From NCBI RefSeq assembly GCF_003018115.1, contig NZ_CP027457.1: 64,000 bases of DNA; one strand, written 5' to 3'. Made by a program: the position numbers and the translations under genes. Positions 12,107 to 30,252 of the stretch are shown here, piece by piece. How positions within the stretch are numbered: position 1 is the stretch's first letter; each line of letters begins with the position of its first letter. The DNA is from Escherichia coli (lineage in GTDB: Bacteria; Pseudomonadota; Gammaproteobacteria; Enterobacterales; Enterobacteriaceae). A model generated the notes under the pieces. It was given only the letters and a program-made list of their open reading frames with translations. It had not been told where the DNA came from and did no database searches.

Positions 12107-12505
12107 TTACTTAACCATCTGCTCCAGCTTTTCGCGCAATTCCCCTTCCAGAGCTAATGCTTTCTGCGTTTTAAGATCAATACAAACAAAGGTAATAAGC
12201 GCATCCGCTACTACCTGCCCTTCCGGCTCCAGTGTAATGACCTGGCTTAAGATGCCGCTTTTACCGTTTAATTGCTGTAACTGGCTCGTAATGGTTAACA
12301 AGTCGCTTAATACCGCCGGACGACGATAATTAATATTGATATTCACCACCACGAAAGCGATGTTATGGGCCGTCATCCAGTGAAAACTGTCGCTATTTTC
12401 CAACCCATCCCAGCGGGCTTCTTCGAGAAATTCAAGGTAGCGGGCGTTGTTTACGTGCTGGTAAACGTCGAGATGATATCCACGAACTTTGATTTGTGTT
12501 TGCAT
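12107..12505 (-). CDS. fadM: long-chain acyl-CoA thioesterase III FadM (YbaW)
   Basis: 132-aa ORF, hotdog thioesterase-like; synteny. Confidence 0.9.
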   Translation of the reverse strand: MQTQIKVRGYHLDVYQHVNNARYLEFLEEARWDGLENSDSFHWMTAHNIAFVVVNININYRRPAVLSDLLTITSQLQQLNGKSGILSQVITLEPEGQVVADALITFVCIDLKTQKALALEGELREKLEQMVK

Positions 12506-12558
12506 AGCGCAATAACCTTACGTTGTTTTTATAAAAACTGTTATAAGTACAGAGGTCA

Positions 12559-13026: not shown

Positions 13027-15004
<1,978 letters not shown>

Positions 15005-15127
15005 GGTGTAACAACACTCCGCTGTAGATGACTGTGTACCTCACGCAACGTATCGATGCGCGCAAAGGCCTATTGTGACAAGAAACGGGGGCAATTGTCA
15101 GCCCACAAGACACAGAAAGTCACCGAA

Positions 15128-15195: not shown

Positions 15196-15468
15196 TTAGT
15201 TTACCGCGTCTTTCAGTGCTTTACCTGCACGGAAGCTCGGTACTTTAGCGGCAGCGATGGTGATCTCTTTACCGGTCTGCGGGTTGCGGCCAGTACGGGC
15301 AGCACGCTCTTTAACGGCAAAAGTACCAAAACCTACCAGTGCTACATCATCCCCTTCTTTCAGAGATTCAGTTACGGAAGCAATAATAGCATCTAACGCA
15401 CGGCCAGCCGCAGCTTTAGAGATATCAGCCCCTGCAGCAATCTTGTCGATCAATTGAGATTTATTCAC
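15196..15468 (-). CDS. hupB: nucleoid protein HU-beta
   Basis: 90-aa [43 protein letters not shown]..., canonical HU sequence. Confidence 0.97.
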
Positions 15469-15606
15469 TCTTCTCTTCCTCTTTATAATTTATATCGCAC
15501 TTGAATCCTTCAAGGTACGAACGCGCAGCAGTTATATCAGGCCAGCCATCCCCTTACAACACCCCTTAATAAGGGCAAGCCCGATCCGCCATCTAACTTA
15601 GCGAGA

Positions 15607-15655
15607 CAAAAAAAGGCTGGCAAGCCCGAATTAGCCTGCCAGCCCTGTTTTTATT
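15607..15655 (-). terminator. rho-independent terminator of lon
   Basis: aaaaaaa-ggctggcaag...cctgccagcc-ctgttttt: about 10-bp stem flanked by A and T runs (bidirectional form). Confidence 0.65.
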
Positions 15656-15676
15656 AGTGCATTTTGCGCGAGGTCA

Positions 15677-18031
15677 CTATTTTGCAGTCACAACCTGCAT
15701 GCCAGACGGTTCATTTTGCAGCGCCAGAGTCAGAACTTCCTCAATGCGCTTCACAGGATGAATGTCCAGATCGGCAATTACGTTGTCAGGAATCTCTTCC
15801 AGATCGCGTTTATTTTCGAACGGAATTAACACTGTTTTAATCCCGCCGCGATGCGCTGCCAGTAGTTTTTCTTTCAAACCACCGATCGGCAGTACCTGAC
15901 CACGCAGAGTGATCTCACCGGTCATTGCCACATCGGCACGAACCGGGTTACCGGTCAGGCAAGAAACCAGCGCGGTGCACATAGCAATACCAGCACTCGG
16001 ACCATCTTTCGGCGTCGCACCTTCCGGTACGTGGACGTGGATGTCGCGTTTTTCGTAGAAATCAGGGTTGATCCCCAGTTTTTCCGCACGCGCACGAACC
16101 ACCGTTAACGCCGCCTGAATGGACTCCTGCATCACTTCACCGAGCGAACCGGTATAGGTCAGTTTGCCTTTCCCCGGAACGCACGCGGTTTCAATGGTCA
16201 GCAAGTCACCGCCCACTTCCGTCCACGCCAGACCGGTTACCTGACCGACACGGTTTTCGTTATCCGCGCGTCCATAGTCAAAACGCTGAACACCGAGATA
16301 GTCATGCAGGTTATCGCCGTTAATTTCGATATGTTTTAATGACTTATCGAGCAGTAACTGCTTAACCGCTTTACGGCACAGTTTGGAGATTTCACGCTCC
16401 AGACCACGCACGCCCGCCTCACGGGTGTAGTAACGAATAATGCCGATAATGGCGCTATCGTCGACGGTCAGCTCACCTTTTTTCAGTGCATTACGTTCAA
16501 TCTGCTTCGGCAGCAGGTGACGTTTGGCGATGTTCAGTTTTTCATCTTCGGTATAACCGGAGAGGCGAATCACTTCCATACGATCCAGCAGCGGTGCCGG
16601 AATGTTCATGGAGTTCGACGTCGCGACAAACATCACGTCGCTGAGATCGTAATCCACTTCCAGGTAGTGGTCGCTGAACGCTACGTTCTGCTCTGGATCG
16701 AGCACTTCAAGCAGTGCAGAGGCCGGATCGCCTCGCATGTCAGAAGACATTTTGTCGATCTCATCGAGCAGGAACAGCGGGTTTTTCACGCCCACTTTCG
16801 CCATTTTCTGGATCAGTTTACCCGGCATAGAACCGATGTAAGTACGGCGGTGACCACGGATTTCCGCTTCATCACGCACGCCGCCCAGCGCCATACGGAC
16901 ATATTTACGCCCAGTGGCTTTGGCGATGGACTGACCCAGGGAGGTTTTACCTACCCCCGGCGGCCCTACCAGGCAGAGGATCGGTCCCTTGATTTTGTTG
17001 ACACGGCTTTGAACCGCAAGATACTCAAGGATTCGATCTTTCACGCGCTCCAGACCATAATGGTCGGTATCAAGGATTTCCTGCGCCTGACGCAGGTCTT
17101 TTTTGACCTTGCTGCGCGCATTCCACGGTACCTGTACCATCCAGTCGATATAACCACGCACTACGGTCGCTTCTGCCGACATCGGAGACATCATTTTCAG
17201 CTTCTGCAACTCTGCTTCCGCTTTCTCTTTTGCCTCTTTCGGCATCTTCGCCGCGTCGATTTTGCGCTTCAGGGCTTCGTTTTCGTCCGGCGCGTCGTCC
17301 ATTTCACCGAGTTCTTTCTGAATAGCTTTCATTTGCTCGTTCAGATAGTACTCACGCTGGGATTTCTCCATCTGCTTTTTAACGCGGTTGCGAATGCGTT
17401 TCTCAACCTGCAGCAGATCGATTTCCGATTCCATCATTGCCATCAGATATTCCAGACGTTCGTTAACGTCGGACATCTCCAGAACGGACTGTTTGTCAGC
17501 CAGTTTCAGCGGCATATGTGCAGCAATGGTATCCGCCAGACGCGCCGGATCGTCGATGCTATTCAGCGACGTCAGCACTTCTGGTGGGATTTTTTTGTTC
17601 AGCTTGATGTAGCCTTCGAACTGGCTGATTGCAGTACGCACCAGCACTTCCTGTTCTCGCTCATCAATGGTCGGCGACTCCAGATACTCCGCCTTCGCAG
17701 AAAAGTGTTCGCCATTGTCAGAGAGCGCAGAAATACGCGCGCGCTGTAACCCCTCGACCAGCACTTTGACGGTGCCGTCAGGCAGCTTCAGCATCTGCAA
17801 TATAGAGGCCACGGTCCCGACGGTGAAAAGATCGTTTACACCCGGCTCATCCGTTGAAGCTTCTTTCTGCGCGACCAGCATAATTTTTTTATCATGGTCC
17901 ATCGCCGCTTCCAGACAACGGATAGATTTTTCCCGCCCGACAAATAAGGGGATGACCATGTGCGGATAAACCACCACATCGCGCAGCGGCAATACGGGGA
18001 TTTCAATGCGTTCAGAACGCTCAGGATTCAT
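15677..18031 (-). CDS. lon: ATP-dependent protease Lon
   Basis: 784-aa protein from internal Met [26 protein letters not shown]...; Walker [10 protein letters not shown]; catalytic Ser motif PKDGPSAG. Confidence 0.97.
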
Positions 18032-18111
18032 AGAGCTCTCTCTTAGTTTAATTTCCGCCAGGTAATCAGATGACACGACTGTGCTTCACGCCATCTATTA
18101 ACATGTACGTC

Positions 18112-18146
18112 AGTATATGGGGATGTTTCCCCCACATTCAACGCCG
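18112..18146 (-). promoter_or_regulatory. sigma-32 heat-shock promoter of lon
   Basis: Reverse complement contains TTGAAT...CCCCATAT; the -10 CCCCATAT matches the sigma-32 consensus CCCCATnT. Confidence 0.55.
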
Positions 18147-18218
18147 AGAATAGAGGAAAAATTAAAGGGGAGATAAAATCCCCCCTTTTTGGTTAACTAA
18201 TTGTATGGGAATGGTTAA

Positions 18219-19493
18219 TTATTCACCAGATGCCTGTTGCGCTTCCGGCTTGCCATAAATCAGCAACGGTTTGCTTTGACCATCAATTACCGACTCGTCG
18301 ATAACCACTTTTTCGACATCTTCCATGGACGGCAGATCGTACATGGTATCGAGCAGTGCGGCTTCTACGATGGAACGCAGGCCACGGGCACCGGTTTTAC
18401 GCGCCATCGCTTTCTTAGCGATAGCATCCAGCGCCTCGTCACGGAATTCCAGATCCACGCCTTCCAGATTAAACAGCGCCTGATACTGCTTGGTCAGGGC
18501 GTTTTTCGGCTCTTTGAGGATCTGAATCAGAGCTTCTTCGCTCAGTTCATTCAACGTTGCGACAACCGGCAGACGACCAATGAACTCAGGGATCAGACCA
18601 AACTTGATCAGATCTTCCGGTTCAACCTGCGCCAGCAGCTCGCCTTCGCTTGCTTTGTCGGACTTCGCTTTTACCGTCGCGCCAAAACCAATGCCGGAGC
18701 CGGTTTCTACACGATGGGAAATCACTTTATCCAGACCGGCAAACGCACCGCCACAAATAAACAGGATCTTAGAGGTATCAACCTGCAAGAATTCCTGCTG
18801 CGGATGTTTACGCCCACCTTGCGGTGGAACAGCAGCTACCGTACCTTCGATCAGTTTCAACAGTGCCTGCTGTACGCCTTCACCGGAAACGTCACGGGTA
18901 ATAGACGGGTTGTCTGACTTACGAGAAATCTTGTCGATTTCATCGATGTAGACAATCCCGCGCTGCGCTTTCTGTACGTCGTAATCGCACTTTTGCAACA
19001 GCTTCTGAATGATGTTTTCAACGTCTTCGCCCACATAACCGGCTTCGGTCAGCGTGGTTGCGTCGGCCATGGTGAACGGGACGTCCAGCAGGCGCGCCAG
19101 CGTTTCAGCCAGCAGCGTTTTACCGGAACCAGTCGGACCGATCAGCAGAATGTTACTTTTGCCCAACTCGACACCATTGCTGGTATCGCCGTTGCGCAGA
19201 CGTTTGTAATGGTTGTATACCGCGACCGCCAGCACTTTTTTCGCCTGTTCCTGGCCGATAACGTAATCGTCCAGGTGGTTACGAATTTCATGCGGCGTCG
19301 GTAGCGCACTGCGTTCACGATGCGGTGCAACTTCTTTAATCTCTTCGCGAATGATGTCGTTACATAAATCAACACATTCGTCGCAGATATACACGGATGG
19401 ACCGGCAATCAGCTTGCGCACTTCATGCTGGCTTTTGCCGCAAAAAGAGCAATACAGCAATTTGCCTGAGCCATCTTTGCGTTTATCTGTCAT
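18219..19493 (-). CDS. clpX: ATP-dependent Clp protease ATPase subunit ClpX
   Basis: 424-aa ORF with N-terminal zinc-binding CSFCGK...CDEC and Walker A GPTGSGKT. Confidence 0.97.
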
Positions 19494-19618
19494 GGGTCAA
19501 AACCTCTTCTTTGTACTTTGTGCCGCACACGACGACGCAAATGCCATTCTCAGGCGCAAGCCGCTTACAGCGTTGTGCCGCCCTGGATAAGTATAGCGGC
19601 ACAGTTGCGCCTCTGGCA

Positions 19619-20242
19619 TCAATTACGATGGGTCAGAATCGAATCGACCAGACCGTATTCCACCGCTTCAGGGGCGGAAAGGAAGCGATCGCGCTCGGTA
19701 TCACGTTCAATCTGTTCTAATGATTGACCCGTATGAAGCGCCATAAGTTCATTCATACGCCCTTTAACTTTCAGAATTTCACGGGCATGAATTTCGATAT
19801 CGGTCGCCTGGCCCTGGTAGCCGCCCAACGGTTGGTGAATCATCACGCGCGAATTCGGCAGGCAAAAACGTTTACCTTTTGCCCCTGCGGTCAGCAAGAA
19901 AGCGCCCATCGAGGCCGCCTGGCCCATACAGATGGTGCTGACATCAGGCTTGATAAACTGCATGGTGTCATAGATAGACATCCCGGCAGTAATCACCCCG
20001 CCTGGAGAGTTAATGTACAGATAGATATCTTTTTCTGGGTTTTCTGCTTCCAGGAACAGCATCTGCGCCACAATCAGGTTAGCCATGTGGTCTTCAACCT
20101 GGCCAGTTAGAAAAATGACGCGTTCCTTAAGTAGACGAGAATAGATATCAAAAGAGCGCTCACCTCGTGAGGTCTGTTCAATGACCATCGGCACCAGCGC
20201 CATATGGGGTGCAAAGTTATCTCGTTCGCCGCTGTATGACAT
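19619..20242 (-). CDS. clpP: ATP-dependent Clp protease proteolytic subunit ClpP
   Basis: 207-aa ORF; active-site region GQAASMGA. Confidence 0.97.
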
Positions 20243-20315
20243 TTCCGTCTCCTGGATAAAATTGAAAAAACCTGCTGTACCGATTGTAACCTTATGGACG
20301 GATTATCAGCTAGTC

Positions 20316-20350
20316 CCTGTGTTATGGGTACGGCATCACCATATTTCAAG
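20316..20350 (-). promoter_or_regulatory. candidate sigma-32 promoter of clpPX
   Basis: Reverse complement reads CTTGAAA-N15-CCCATAAC, resembling the sigma-32 -35/-10 consensus; placed from the motif only. Confidence 0.4.
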
Positions 20351-20421
20351 CATAACAATCTTTTGTTGTTACGCTAACACCGAAAGAGGCTTTTCGCACG
20401 GTTCCATGCAAAATTCATGAC

Positions 20422-20453
20422 AAAAAAAAGCCCACCACCTGGCGGTGACGGGC
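20422..20453 (-). terminator. rho-independent terminator of tig
   Basis: Minus-strand RNA: 10-bp stem gcccgucacc/gguggugggc with 4-nt loop, followed by a U8 run. Confidence 0.75.
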
Positions 20454-20487
20454 CTTTGTGCGAATTTAGCGCGTTATGCTGCGTAAA

Positions 20488-21795
<1,308 letters not shown>

Positions 21796-30146: not shown

Positions 30147-30252
30147 TAGCATTAGAAACATATCCCTCTCGAAATATTTACTAAAAAATCCCCATGTTTA
30201 CCCCATTCGTTTGCCGCTTTACACTAGTCGTGAATTTAAAACAGAGGTGGTA

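What the first reader, a model, noticed from the sequence alone, without database searches (positions are those of the whole stretch)
15607..20460. Heat-shock protease/chaperone cluster tig-clpP-clpX-lon-hupB-ppiD with recognisable sigma-32 promoters and strong terminators
The five-gene proteostasis cluster is intact on the minus strand. The lon leader has a CCCCATAT -10 element and the clpP leader a CTTGAAA-N15-CCCATAAC arrangement, both sigma-32-like. tig ends with a 10-bp stem plus U8 terminator and lon with a stem flanked by A/T runs. This is known biology, included because the elements are directly readable.
Basis: partly seen in the sequence, partly recalled or inferred. Interest (0 to 1): 0.15.

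Follow-up and report, generated by a model that had tools for sequence, protein, structure and literature searches.

The report
E. coli clpPX-lon promoters and terminators
This is the textbook E. coli clpP-clpX-lon protease region.

Summary
The window is E. coli chromosome and is colinear with K-12 MG1655 (MG1655 position = 476919 minus window position). All four elements are at the stated places.

- **lon promoter:** GTTGAAT-N13-CCCCATAT, 18142-18115.
- **clpP promoter:** CTTGAAA-N15-CCCATAAC, which equals N14-ACCCATAA, 20350-20321.
- **tig terminator:** 10-bp stem plus U8, 20453-20422.
- **lon terminator:** 11-bp stem plus U7, with an A-run upstream, 15644-15608.

Published transcription start sites lie 8 nt after each -10 element (window 18106 and 20314). 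That is the same geometry as dnaK P1. Published sigma-32 ChIP regions cover both promoters. A published 3' end falls inside the tig U-tract.

Across Enterobacterales species, TTGAAT-N13-CCCCATAT is exact in 76 of 76 clpX-lon spacers. The spacer length never changes although its sequence does. All three terminator hairpins stay paired; only the tig and clpX stems show changes on both sides of a pair.

Caveats:
- clpP has a stronger sigma-70-type start 28 nt upstream. Its sigma-32-type start was not flagged in the heat-shock sample.
- The lon terminator has no 3' end in the one table I could read.
- "Five genes" names six, and the coordinates span only clpP, clpX and lon.

Already known; low interest.

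The parts
20422..20453 (-). tig intrinsic terminator: stem GCCCGUCACC/GGUGGUGGGC, loop GCCA, U8 tract 20429-20422
   Evidence: Sequence. Ranked among the top terminator-scan hits. Folds at -22.3 kcal/mol. Published Term-seq 3' end at MG1655 456492 = window 20427, inside the U-tract. Compensatory pair changes across 60 distinct sequences.
20349..20377 (-). Upstream clpP promoter, sigma-70 type: -35 TTAGCG (20377-20372) and extended -10 TGTTATGCT (20357-20349). The start site lies at 20342, outside this span.
   Evidence: Published start site 455801 (U00096.2) = window 20342, 3166 reads, seen in all four conditions. The hexamers were assigned by me from the sequence (inference).
20314..20350 (-). 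clpP sigma-32-type promoter: -35 CTTGAAA (20350-20344), 14-bp spacer, -10 ACCCATAA (20329-20322), start site at 20314
   Evidence: Sequence. Published start site 455829 = window 20314, 1303 reads, in the S and G samples. Sigma-32 ChIP region SigH_46 covers it. CTTGAA-N14-16-CCCA is present in 55 of 62 species.
19619..20242 (-). clpP coding sequence
19494..19618 (-). clpP-clpX spacer: nested inverted repeats (GTGCCGC...GCGGCAC inside GGCGCAA...TTGCGCC) and a minor clpX promoter (-10 TATACT 19595-19590, start site 19583)
   Evidence: Folds at -48.1 kcal/mol, z -2.05. Published start site 456560 = window 19583, 75 reads. GCCGCTATA is conserved.
18219..19493 (-). clpX coding sequence
18157..18188 (-). 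clpX intrinsic terminator: AAAGGGGGG-AUU-UUAUCUCCCCUUU hairpin plus AAUUUUU tail. Read on the other strand it is the sraA terminator.
   Evidence: Published 3' end at 458758 = window 18161. Stem conserved, 57-68 of 68 paired.
18103..18198 (+). sraA small RNA, antisense to the clpX-lon spacer and spanning the whole lon promoter
   Evidence: Rfam RF02029, 106.7 bits against a gathering score of 56. Listed as gene G0-8861 in the Term-seq annotation.
18106..18142 (-). lon sigma-32 promoter: -35 GTTGAAT (18142-18136), 13-bp spacer, -10 CCCCATAT (18122-18115), start site at 18106. The spacer holds the palindrome GGGGG-AAACAT-CCCC (18133-18119).
   Evidence: Sequence. Published start site 458037 = window 18106, 1744 reads, in the S, G and H samples. 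Sigma-32 ChIP region SigH_47 covers it. TTGAAT-N13-CCCCATAT is exact in 76 of 76 species.
15677..18031 (-). lon coding sequence (ATG at 18031). The longer GTG-18076 ORF from the ORF lister is not the annotated start.
15608..15655 (-). lon terminator: A-run (15655-15646), stem GGCUGGCAGGC/GCUUGCCAGCC (15644-15615), U7 (15614-15608)
   Evidence: Best hit of the terminator scan. Folds at -30.1 kcal/mol, z -5.8. Stem paired in 72-76 of 76 sequences at most positions, and the T-tract is at least 95% conserved. No 3' end is listed in the Term-seq table read.

Best explanation
The region is the E. coli clpP-clpX operon and the lon gene, with their known transcription signals.

RNA polymerase carrying the heat-shock sigma factor sigma-32 recognises GTTGAAT-N13-CCCCATAT upstream of lon and starts at window 18106. 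It recognises CTTGAAA-N14-ACCCATAA upstream of clpP and starts at 20314.

clpP also has an overlapping housekeeping promoter of the extended -10 type, starting at 20342. That promoter probably supplies basal expression (inferred).

Transcripts end at hairpin-plus-U-tract intrinsic terminators after tig, clpX and lon. This makes tig, clpPX and lon separate transcription units.

Shown here: the sequences, their positions relative to published start sites and 3' ends, sigma-32 ChIP coverage, and conservation. Inferred or from the wider literature: heat inducibility and the efficiency of the lon terminator.
For: - The window is 99.9% identical to E. coli chromosomes, and the region is present in 5419 of 5426 genomes. 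It is colinear with MG1655, and the three key intergenic regions are identical.
- Start sites from Cho et al. 2014 (PMC3923258, Tables S4 and S6) fall at window 18106 and 20314. Each is 8 nt after the -10 octamer.
- dnaK P1 in the same table starts 8 nt after CCCCATTT. The dnaK P1 scaffold used for the sigma-32 open-complex structure has CTTGAA at -35 to -30 (PMC10216364).
- Sigma-32 ChIP-chip regions SigH_46 and SigH_47 cover the two promoters.
- Term-seq 3' ends (PMC7815308) lie at window 20427 (tig U-tract) and 18161 (clpX terminator tail).
- In the Enterobacterales species retrieved, the lon hexamers and the 13-bp spacing are invariant in 76 of 76 clpX-lon spacers, while the spacer sequence has 57 variants.
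- The clpP motif is kept in 55 of 62 species, usually with a better -10.
- The terminator stems stay paired across species, with compensatory changes in the tig and clpX stems.
Against: - The motif alone is barely above chance in this window.
- The clpP sigma-32-type start is the weaker of two and was flagged only in the stationary-phase and glutamine samples. The heat-shock sample showed only the upstream start.
- No 3' end is listed for the lon terminator in the dataset read.
- I could not open the primary papers that established sigma-32 dependence. Heat induction itself therefore rests on my knowledge of the literature.
Confidence: 0.93

Rival explanations
1. The clpP motif is not the working heat-shock promoter. 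clpPX transcription, including during heat shock, comes from the upstream sigma-70-type start at 20342, and the CTTGAAA/CCCATAA match is incidental.
For: The upstream start has 3166 reads against 1303 and is seen in all four conditions, including heat shock. The 20314 start is flagged only in the S and G samples.
Against: - A start site exists exactly 8 nt after ACCCATAA, as at dnaK P1 and lon.
- CTTGAAA is the best-conserved block of the tig-clpP spacer, at least 95% conserved. The CCCA core sits at a fixed distance in 55 of 62 species, and most genera carry a closer match to the consensus.
- A sigma-32 ChIP region covers the site.
- Start-site calls are thresholded, so absence from one sample is weak evidence.
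Confidence: 0.06
2. The promoter-like motifs are chance matches to a short degenerate consensus.
For: With at most 2 mismatches there are 5 hits in the window against 2.4 +/- 1.4 expected. With at most 3 mismatches there are fewer than expected, 16 against 29.
Against: Both motifs sit in the right intergenic spacers, 8 nt upstream of mapped start sites. Both are conserved with fixed spacing across genera whose spacer sequences have diverged.
Confidence: 0.01
3. The hairpin after lon is conserved mainly because its 3' arm is part of the hupB promoter, not because it is an efficient terminator.
For: - The strongest start site of the region (window 15587, 13333 reads) implies a -35 hexamer TTGCCA at 15623-15618, inside the 3' arm. 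The T7 tract would then lie in the promoter spacer (my reading of the sequence).
- No lon 3' end appears in the Term-seq table.
Against: - The 5' arm, which has no role in a hupB promoter, is equally conserved. Pairing is kept in 72-76 of 76 sequences, including G-C to A-U and C-G to U-G changes.
- The fold is very stable (-30.1 kcal/mol, z -5.8) and is followed directly by U7.
- The two roles are compatible.
Confidence: 0.15

Closest known systems
E. coli K-12 lon heat-shock promoter and clpPX heat-shock promoter (sigma-32 regulon)
   Same: The intergenic sequences are identical to MG1655. Start sites, sigma-32 ChIP regions and motif geometry all agree.
   Different: Nothing differs. The window strain has only synonymous-scale substitutions in the coding regions and one base change in the clpP-clpX spacer (window 19515).
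dnaK P1, the reference sigma-32 promoter
   Same: It has CTTGAA at -35, CCCCATnT at -10, and a start 8 nt after the octamer. lon has the same 13-bp spacing.
   Different: lon has G instead of C at the first -35 position and T at the last. clpP has A instead of C at the first -10 position, A instead of T at the last, and a spacer one base longer.
Canonical intrinsic (Rho-independent) terminators
   Same: A G+C-rich hairpin is followed directly by a 7-8 U tract. A 3' end inside the U-tract was measured for tig and for clpX.
   Different: The clpX terminator has an interrupted tail (AAUUUUU) and works on both strands, since it is also the sraA terminator. The lon terminator has an A-run upstream, as bidirectional terminators do, although no gene converges on it.
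SraA small RNA (Rfam RF02029)
   Same: Full-length match well above the gathering score, in the clpX-lon spacer where the family is described.
   Different: None. Its function is unknown, and it is not annotated in the RefSeq records inspected.

Membership tests
Sigma-32 (RpoH) dependent promoter | -35 element close to CTTGAA(A) | tested here: met
   lon has GTTGAAT (5 of 7). clpP has CTTGAAA (7 of 7). Consensus taken from PMC10216364.
Sigma-32 (RpoH) dependent promoter | -10 element close to CCCCATnT | tested here: met
   lon has CCCCATAT (all 7 specified positions). clpP has ACCCATAA (5 of 7). Other genera carry CCCCATAA, CCCCATTA or CCCCATCT at the clpP site.
Sigma-32 (RpoH) dependent promoter | Spacing of 13-14 bp between the 7-mer and the 8-mer, as at dnaK P1 | tested here: met
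   lon has 13 bp, fixed in 76 of 76 species. clpP has 14 bp, and 13-14 bp in nearly all species.
Sigma-32 (RpoH) dependent promoter | Transcription start about 8 nt downstream of the -10 octamer | tested here: met
   Published start sites map to window 18106 and 20314. The dnaK P1 control has the same offset.
Sigma-32 (RpoH) dependent promoter | Sigma-32 holoenzyme occupancy in vivo | tested here: met
   ChIP-chip regions SigH_46 and SigH_47 in Cho et al. 2014 Table S2 cover the two promoters. Their resolution is about 1 kb.
Sigma-32 (RpoH) dependent promoter | Transcription depends on sigma-32 and rises on heat shock | tested here: inconclusive
   The lon start site is seen in the heat-shock sample. 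The clpP 20314 start site is not flagged there. Sigma-32 dependence of lon and clpP is established knowledge that I recall but could not re-read.
Intrinsic terminator | Stable G+C-rich hairpin immediately followed by a U-tract | tested here: met
   tig: 10-bp core stem plus U8. lon: 11-bp stem plus U7. clpX: 11-pair stem plus AAUUUUU.
Intrinsic terminator | RNA 3' end within or at the U-tract in vivo | tested here: inconclusive
   Met for tig (window 20427) and clpX (18161). No 3' end is listed for lon in PMC7815308. Other Term-seq supplements were not held.
Intrinsic terminator | Hairpin maintained in evolution, with compensatory changes | tested here: met
   The tig stem shows CG, GC, AU and UG at the same pairs. 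The lon and clpX stems are 84-100% paired.
SraA sRNA (RF02029) | Covariance-model score above Rfam's gathering threshold over the full model | tested here: met
   106.7 bits against 56, covering model positions 1-95 of 95.

The most novel reading that the evidence does not exclude
SraA, whose function is unknown, is transcribed across the entire lon sigma-32 promoter and shares its terminator hairpin with clpX. It could act as a built-in antisense or transcription-interference brake on lon or clpX expression. My evidence neither supports nor excludes this: I found no published sraA start site and no functional data.
Probability: 0.08. Interest if true: 0.35.

Novelty: already known. Interest (0 to 1): 0.05.

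Why it matters
It matters little. These are among the earliest characterised heat-shock promoters in the best-studied bacterium.

The useful outcome is calibration. A reader working from raw sequence alone placed two sigma-32 promoters and two terminators to the base. The check also shows what such a reading misses: a second overlapping clpP promoter, the clpX terminator, an antisense sRNA, and the overlap between the lon terminator and the hupB promoter.

Tried and rejected
- **Primary literature.** I tried to open Nonaka 2006, SaiSree 2001 and Cowing 1985. None is held.
- **Second Term-seq dataset for the lon terminator.** I tried PMC9023263, PMC12259150 and PMC6061677. No supplements are held, so the lon 3' end stays unconfirmed.
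- **sraA start site.** I looked for a minus-strand start site for sraA in Cho et al. and found none listed.
- **Genomic SELEX paper.** PMC5493296 lists a tig/clpP spacer peak only in its RpoS section, and I found nothing there about sigma-32 binding at these promoters.
- **Chance.** I considered that the motifs were chance matches. This was rejected on position, mapped start sites and conservation.
- **Other sigma-32-like hit.** The only hit in the window with at most 1 mismatch (30168-30197, + strand) maps inside cyoE by the coordinate map and has an over-long spacer. I treated it as probably chance and did not pursue it.
Full report
**Identity of the region.** The 6-kb stretch around the finding is 99.9% identical to E. 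coli chromosomes and is present in 5419 of 5426 complete genomes. RefSeq annotation of the best match gives, on the window's minus strand:
- bolA
- tig, 20488-21786
- clpP, 19619-20242
- clpX, 18219-19493
- lon, 15677-18031
- hupB, 15196-15468
- ppiD, 13133-15004

The window is colinear with K-12 MG1655, with MG1655 position = 476919 minus window position. The tig-clpP, clpX-lon and lon-hupB spacers are base-for-base identical to K-12. Published K-12 maps therefore transfer directly.

**Check of the observation.** Reading the minus strand confirms each element.
- lon promoter: GTTGAAT (18142-18136), 13 bp, CCCCATAT (18122-18115).
- clpP promoter: CTTGAAA (20350-20344), 15 bp, CCCATAAC (20328-20321). 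In the register of the consensus octamer this is 14 bp plus ACCCATAA.
- tig terminator: a 10-bp stem (GCCCGUCACC/GGUGGUGGGC, two G-U pairs), loop GCCA, then eight U.
- lon terminator: an 11-bp stem (GGCUGGCAGGC/GCUUGCCAGCC), an 8-nt loop, then seven U, with an A-rich run upstream.

The terminator scan ranks the lon, tig, clpX and hupB gene-end hairpins as its four best hits. The lon hairpin folds at -30.1 kcal/mol (z = -5.8) and the tig hairpin at -22.3 kcal/mol.

It wrote "five-gene" for six named genes. Its coordinates span only clpP, clpX and lon. It did not mention the clpX terminator.

**Is it more than chance?** As patterns alone, hardly. My scan for CTTGAAA-N12-16-CCCCATNT found 5 hits with at most 2 mismatches in the window, against 2.4 +/- 1.4 in simulated sequence. 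The case rests on three independent lines.

*1. Published start sites.* Cho et al. 2014 (PMC3923258, Table S4) list start sites at U00096.2 positions 458037 and 455829. These correspond to window 18106 and 20314. Each is the eighth base after the -10 octamer. In the same table dnaK P1 starts eight bases after CCCCATTT. In the sigma-32 open-complex structure paper, the dnaK P1 scaffold places CTTGAA at -35 to -30 (PMC10216364).

*2. Sigma-32 occupancy.* The ChIP-chip regions SigH_46 and SigH_47 from the same study cover the two promoters.

*3. Conservation.* I retrieved the locus from 80 Enterobacterales species. Synteny tig-clpP-clpX-lon-hupB is kept.
- TTGAAT-N13-CCCCATAT is exact in 76 of 76 clpX-lon spacers. 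The 13-bp spacer has 57 different sequences but never a different length. This is the signature of a two-element promoter.
- At clpP, CTTGAAA is the best-conserved block of the spacer.
- A CCCA core follows at fixed distance in 55 of 62 species.
- Most genera have a better -10 (CCCCATAA, CCCCATTA or CCCCATCT) than E. coli.

**Terminators.** The Term-seq tables of Adams et al. 2021 (PMC7815308) list 3' ends at three relevant MG1655 positions:
- 456492 = window 20427, inside the tig U-tract.
- 458758 = window 18161, in the tail of the clpX hairpin.
- 461784, the hupB terminator.

No 3' end is listed at the lon hairpin. I could not obtain a second dataset. The lon terminator therefore rests on structure and conservation:
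- The lon stem pairs in 72-76 of 76 distinct sequences at most positions, and the T-tract is at least 95% conserved.
- The tig stem shows true compensatory changes (CG, GC, AU and UG at the same pair).
- The clpX stem is 57-68 of 68 paired.

- *A second clpP promoter.* clpP has a second, more abundant start at window 20342 (3166 reads against 1303). It is seen in all four conditions, whereas the sigma-32-type start is flagged only in the stationary-phase and glutamine samples. The upstream start fits an extended -10 sigma-70 promoter, TGTTATGCT at 20357-20349. This overlaps the sigma-32 -35 element (my assignment from the sequence).
- *sraA.* Rfam finds the small RNA sraA on the plus strand at 18103-18198 (106.7 bits, gathering score 56). 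It is antisense to the whole lon promoter and uses the other face of the clpX terminator.
- *IS186 target.* The lon promoter spacer contains the palindrome GGGGG-AAACAT-CCCC, and the lon promoter is described in the literature as an IS186 insertion hot spot (PMC3045373, citing SaiSree et al. 2001); that this palindrome is the target sequence is from my memory of SaiSree et al. In 55 of 5424 E. coli genomes the 400-bp clpX-lon region is not intact. The one example inspected has an IS4/IS421-family transposase directly after clpX. The palindrome is present in only 3 of 76 sequences.
- *hupB promoter overlap.* The strongest start site of the region (window 15587, hupB, 13333 reads) implies a -35 hexamer TTGCCA at 15623-15618. 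That lies inside the 3' arm of the lon terminator.

**Mechanism.** Sigma-32 holoenzyme starts lon at 18106 and clpPX at 20314. A housekeeping promoter adds basal clpPX transcription from 20342. Intrinsic terminators after tig, clpX and lon separate the units.
- Shown here: the positions, the agreement with published maps, ChIP coverage and conservation.
- Not shown here: heat inducibility and sigma-32 dependence of each start. This is established knowledge I could not re-read. Also not shown: the in vivo efficiency of the lon terminator.

**Verdict.** It is already known biology and of low interest.

Noticed in passing
window 18103-18198 (+): The small RNA sraA (Rfam RF02029, 106.7 bits) lies antisense to the clpX-lon spacer. 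It spans the entire lon sigma-32 promoter and shares the clpX terminator hairpin. It is not annotated in the RefSeq records inspected, and no start site for it appears in the Cho et al. table.
   Followed up: partly
window 18119-18133 (-); L003 2501-3873: The lon promoter spacer holds the palindrome GGGGG-AAACAT-CCCC, which as I recall from SaiSree et al. 2001 is the IS186 target (the held paper says only that the lon promoter is an IS186 hot spot). In 55 of 5424 E. coli genomes the 400-bp clpX-lon region is not intact. The one example inspected has an IS4/IS421-family transposase right after clpX and has lost lon. The palindrome occurs in only 3 of the 76 sequences.
   Followed up: partly
window 20342-20377 (-): A second, more abundant clpP start site lies at 20342. 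It fits an extended -10 sigma-70 promoter (TGTTATGCT) that overlaps the sigma-32 -35 element. In the published table the heat-shock sample flags this start and not the sigma-32-type one.
   Followed up: partly
window 15587-15623 (-): The major hupB start site (15587, 13333 reads) implies a -35 hexamer TTGCCA inside the 3' arm of the lon terminator, with the U/T tract in the promoter spacer. Terminator and promoter therefore overlap.
   Followed up: partly
window 19494-19618 (-): The clpP-clpX spacer folds into nested hairpins (-48 kcal/mol). It contains a conserved GCCGCTATAMT block that matches a minor published clpX start site at 19583. It could be an attenuator or a processing site that sets the ClpP:ClpX ratio.
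   Followed up: partly
window 30168-30197 (+): This is the best sigma-32 consensus match in the whole window (CTCGAAA-N15-CCCCATGT, 1 mismatch). By the K-12 coordinate map it falls inside cyoE, and its spacer is longer than usual, so it is probably chance.
   Followed up: no
window 15083-15109 (-): Upstream of ppiD there is a weaker sigma-32-like arrangement, CTTGTGG-N12-CCCCGTTT. From memory, ppiD is reported to be under sigma-32 and Cpx control. I did not check this against start-site data.
   Followed up: no
window 12419-12538: Colinearity with K-12 breaks at about MG1655 464381, in the ybaV-fadM spacer, which indicates a small indel there in this strain.
   Followed up: no
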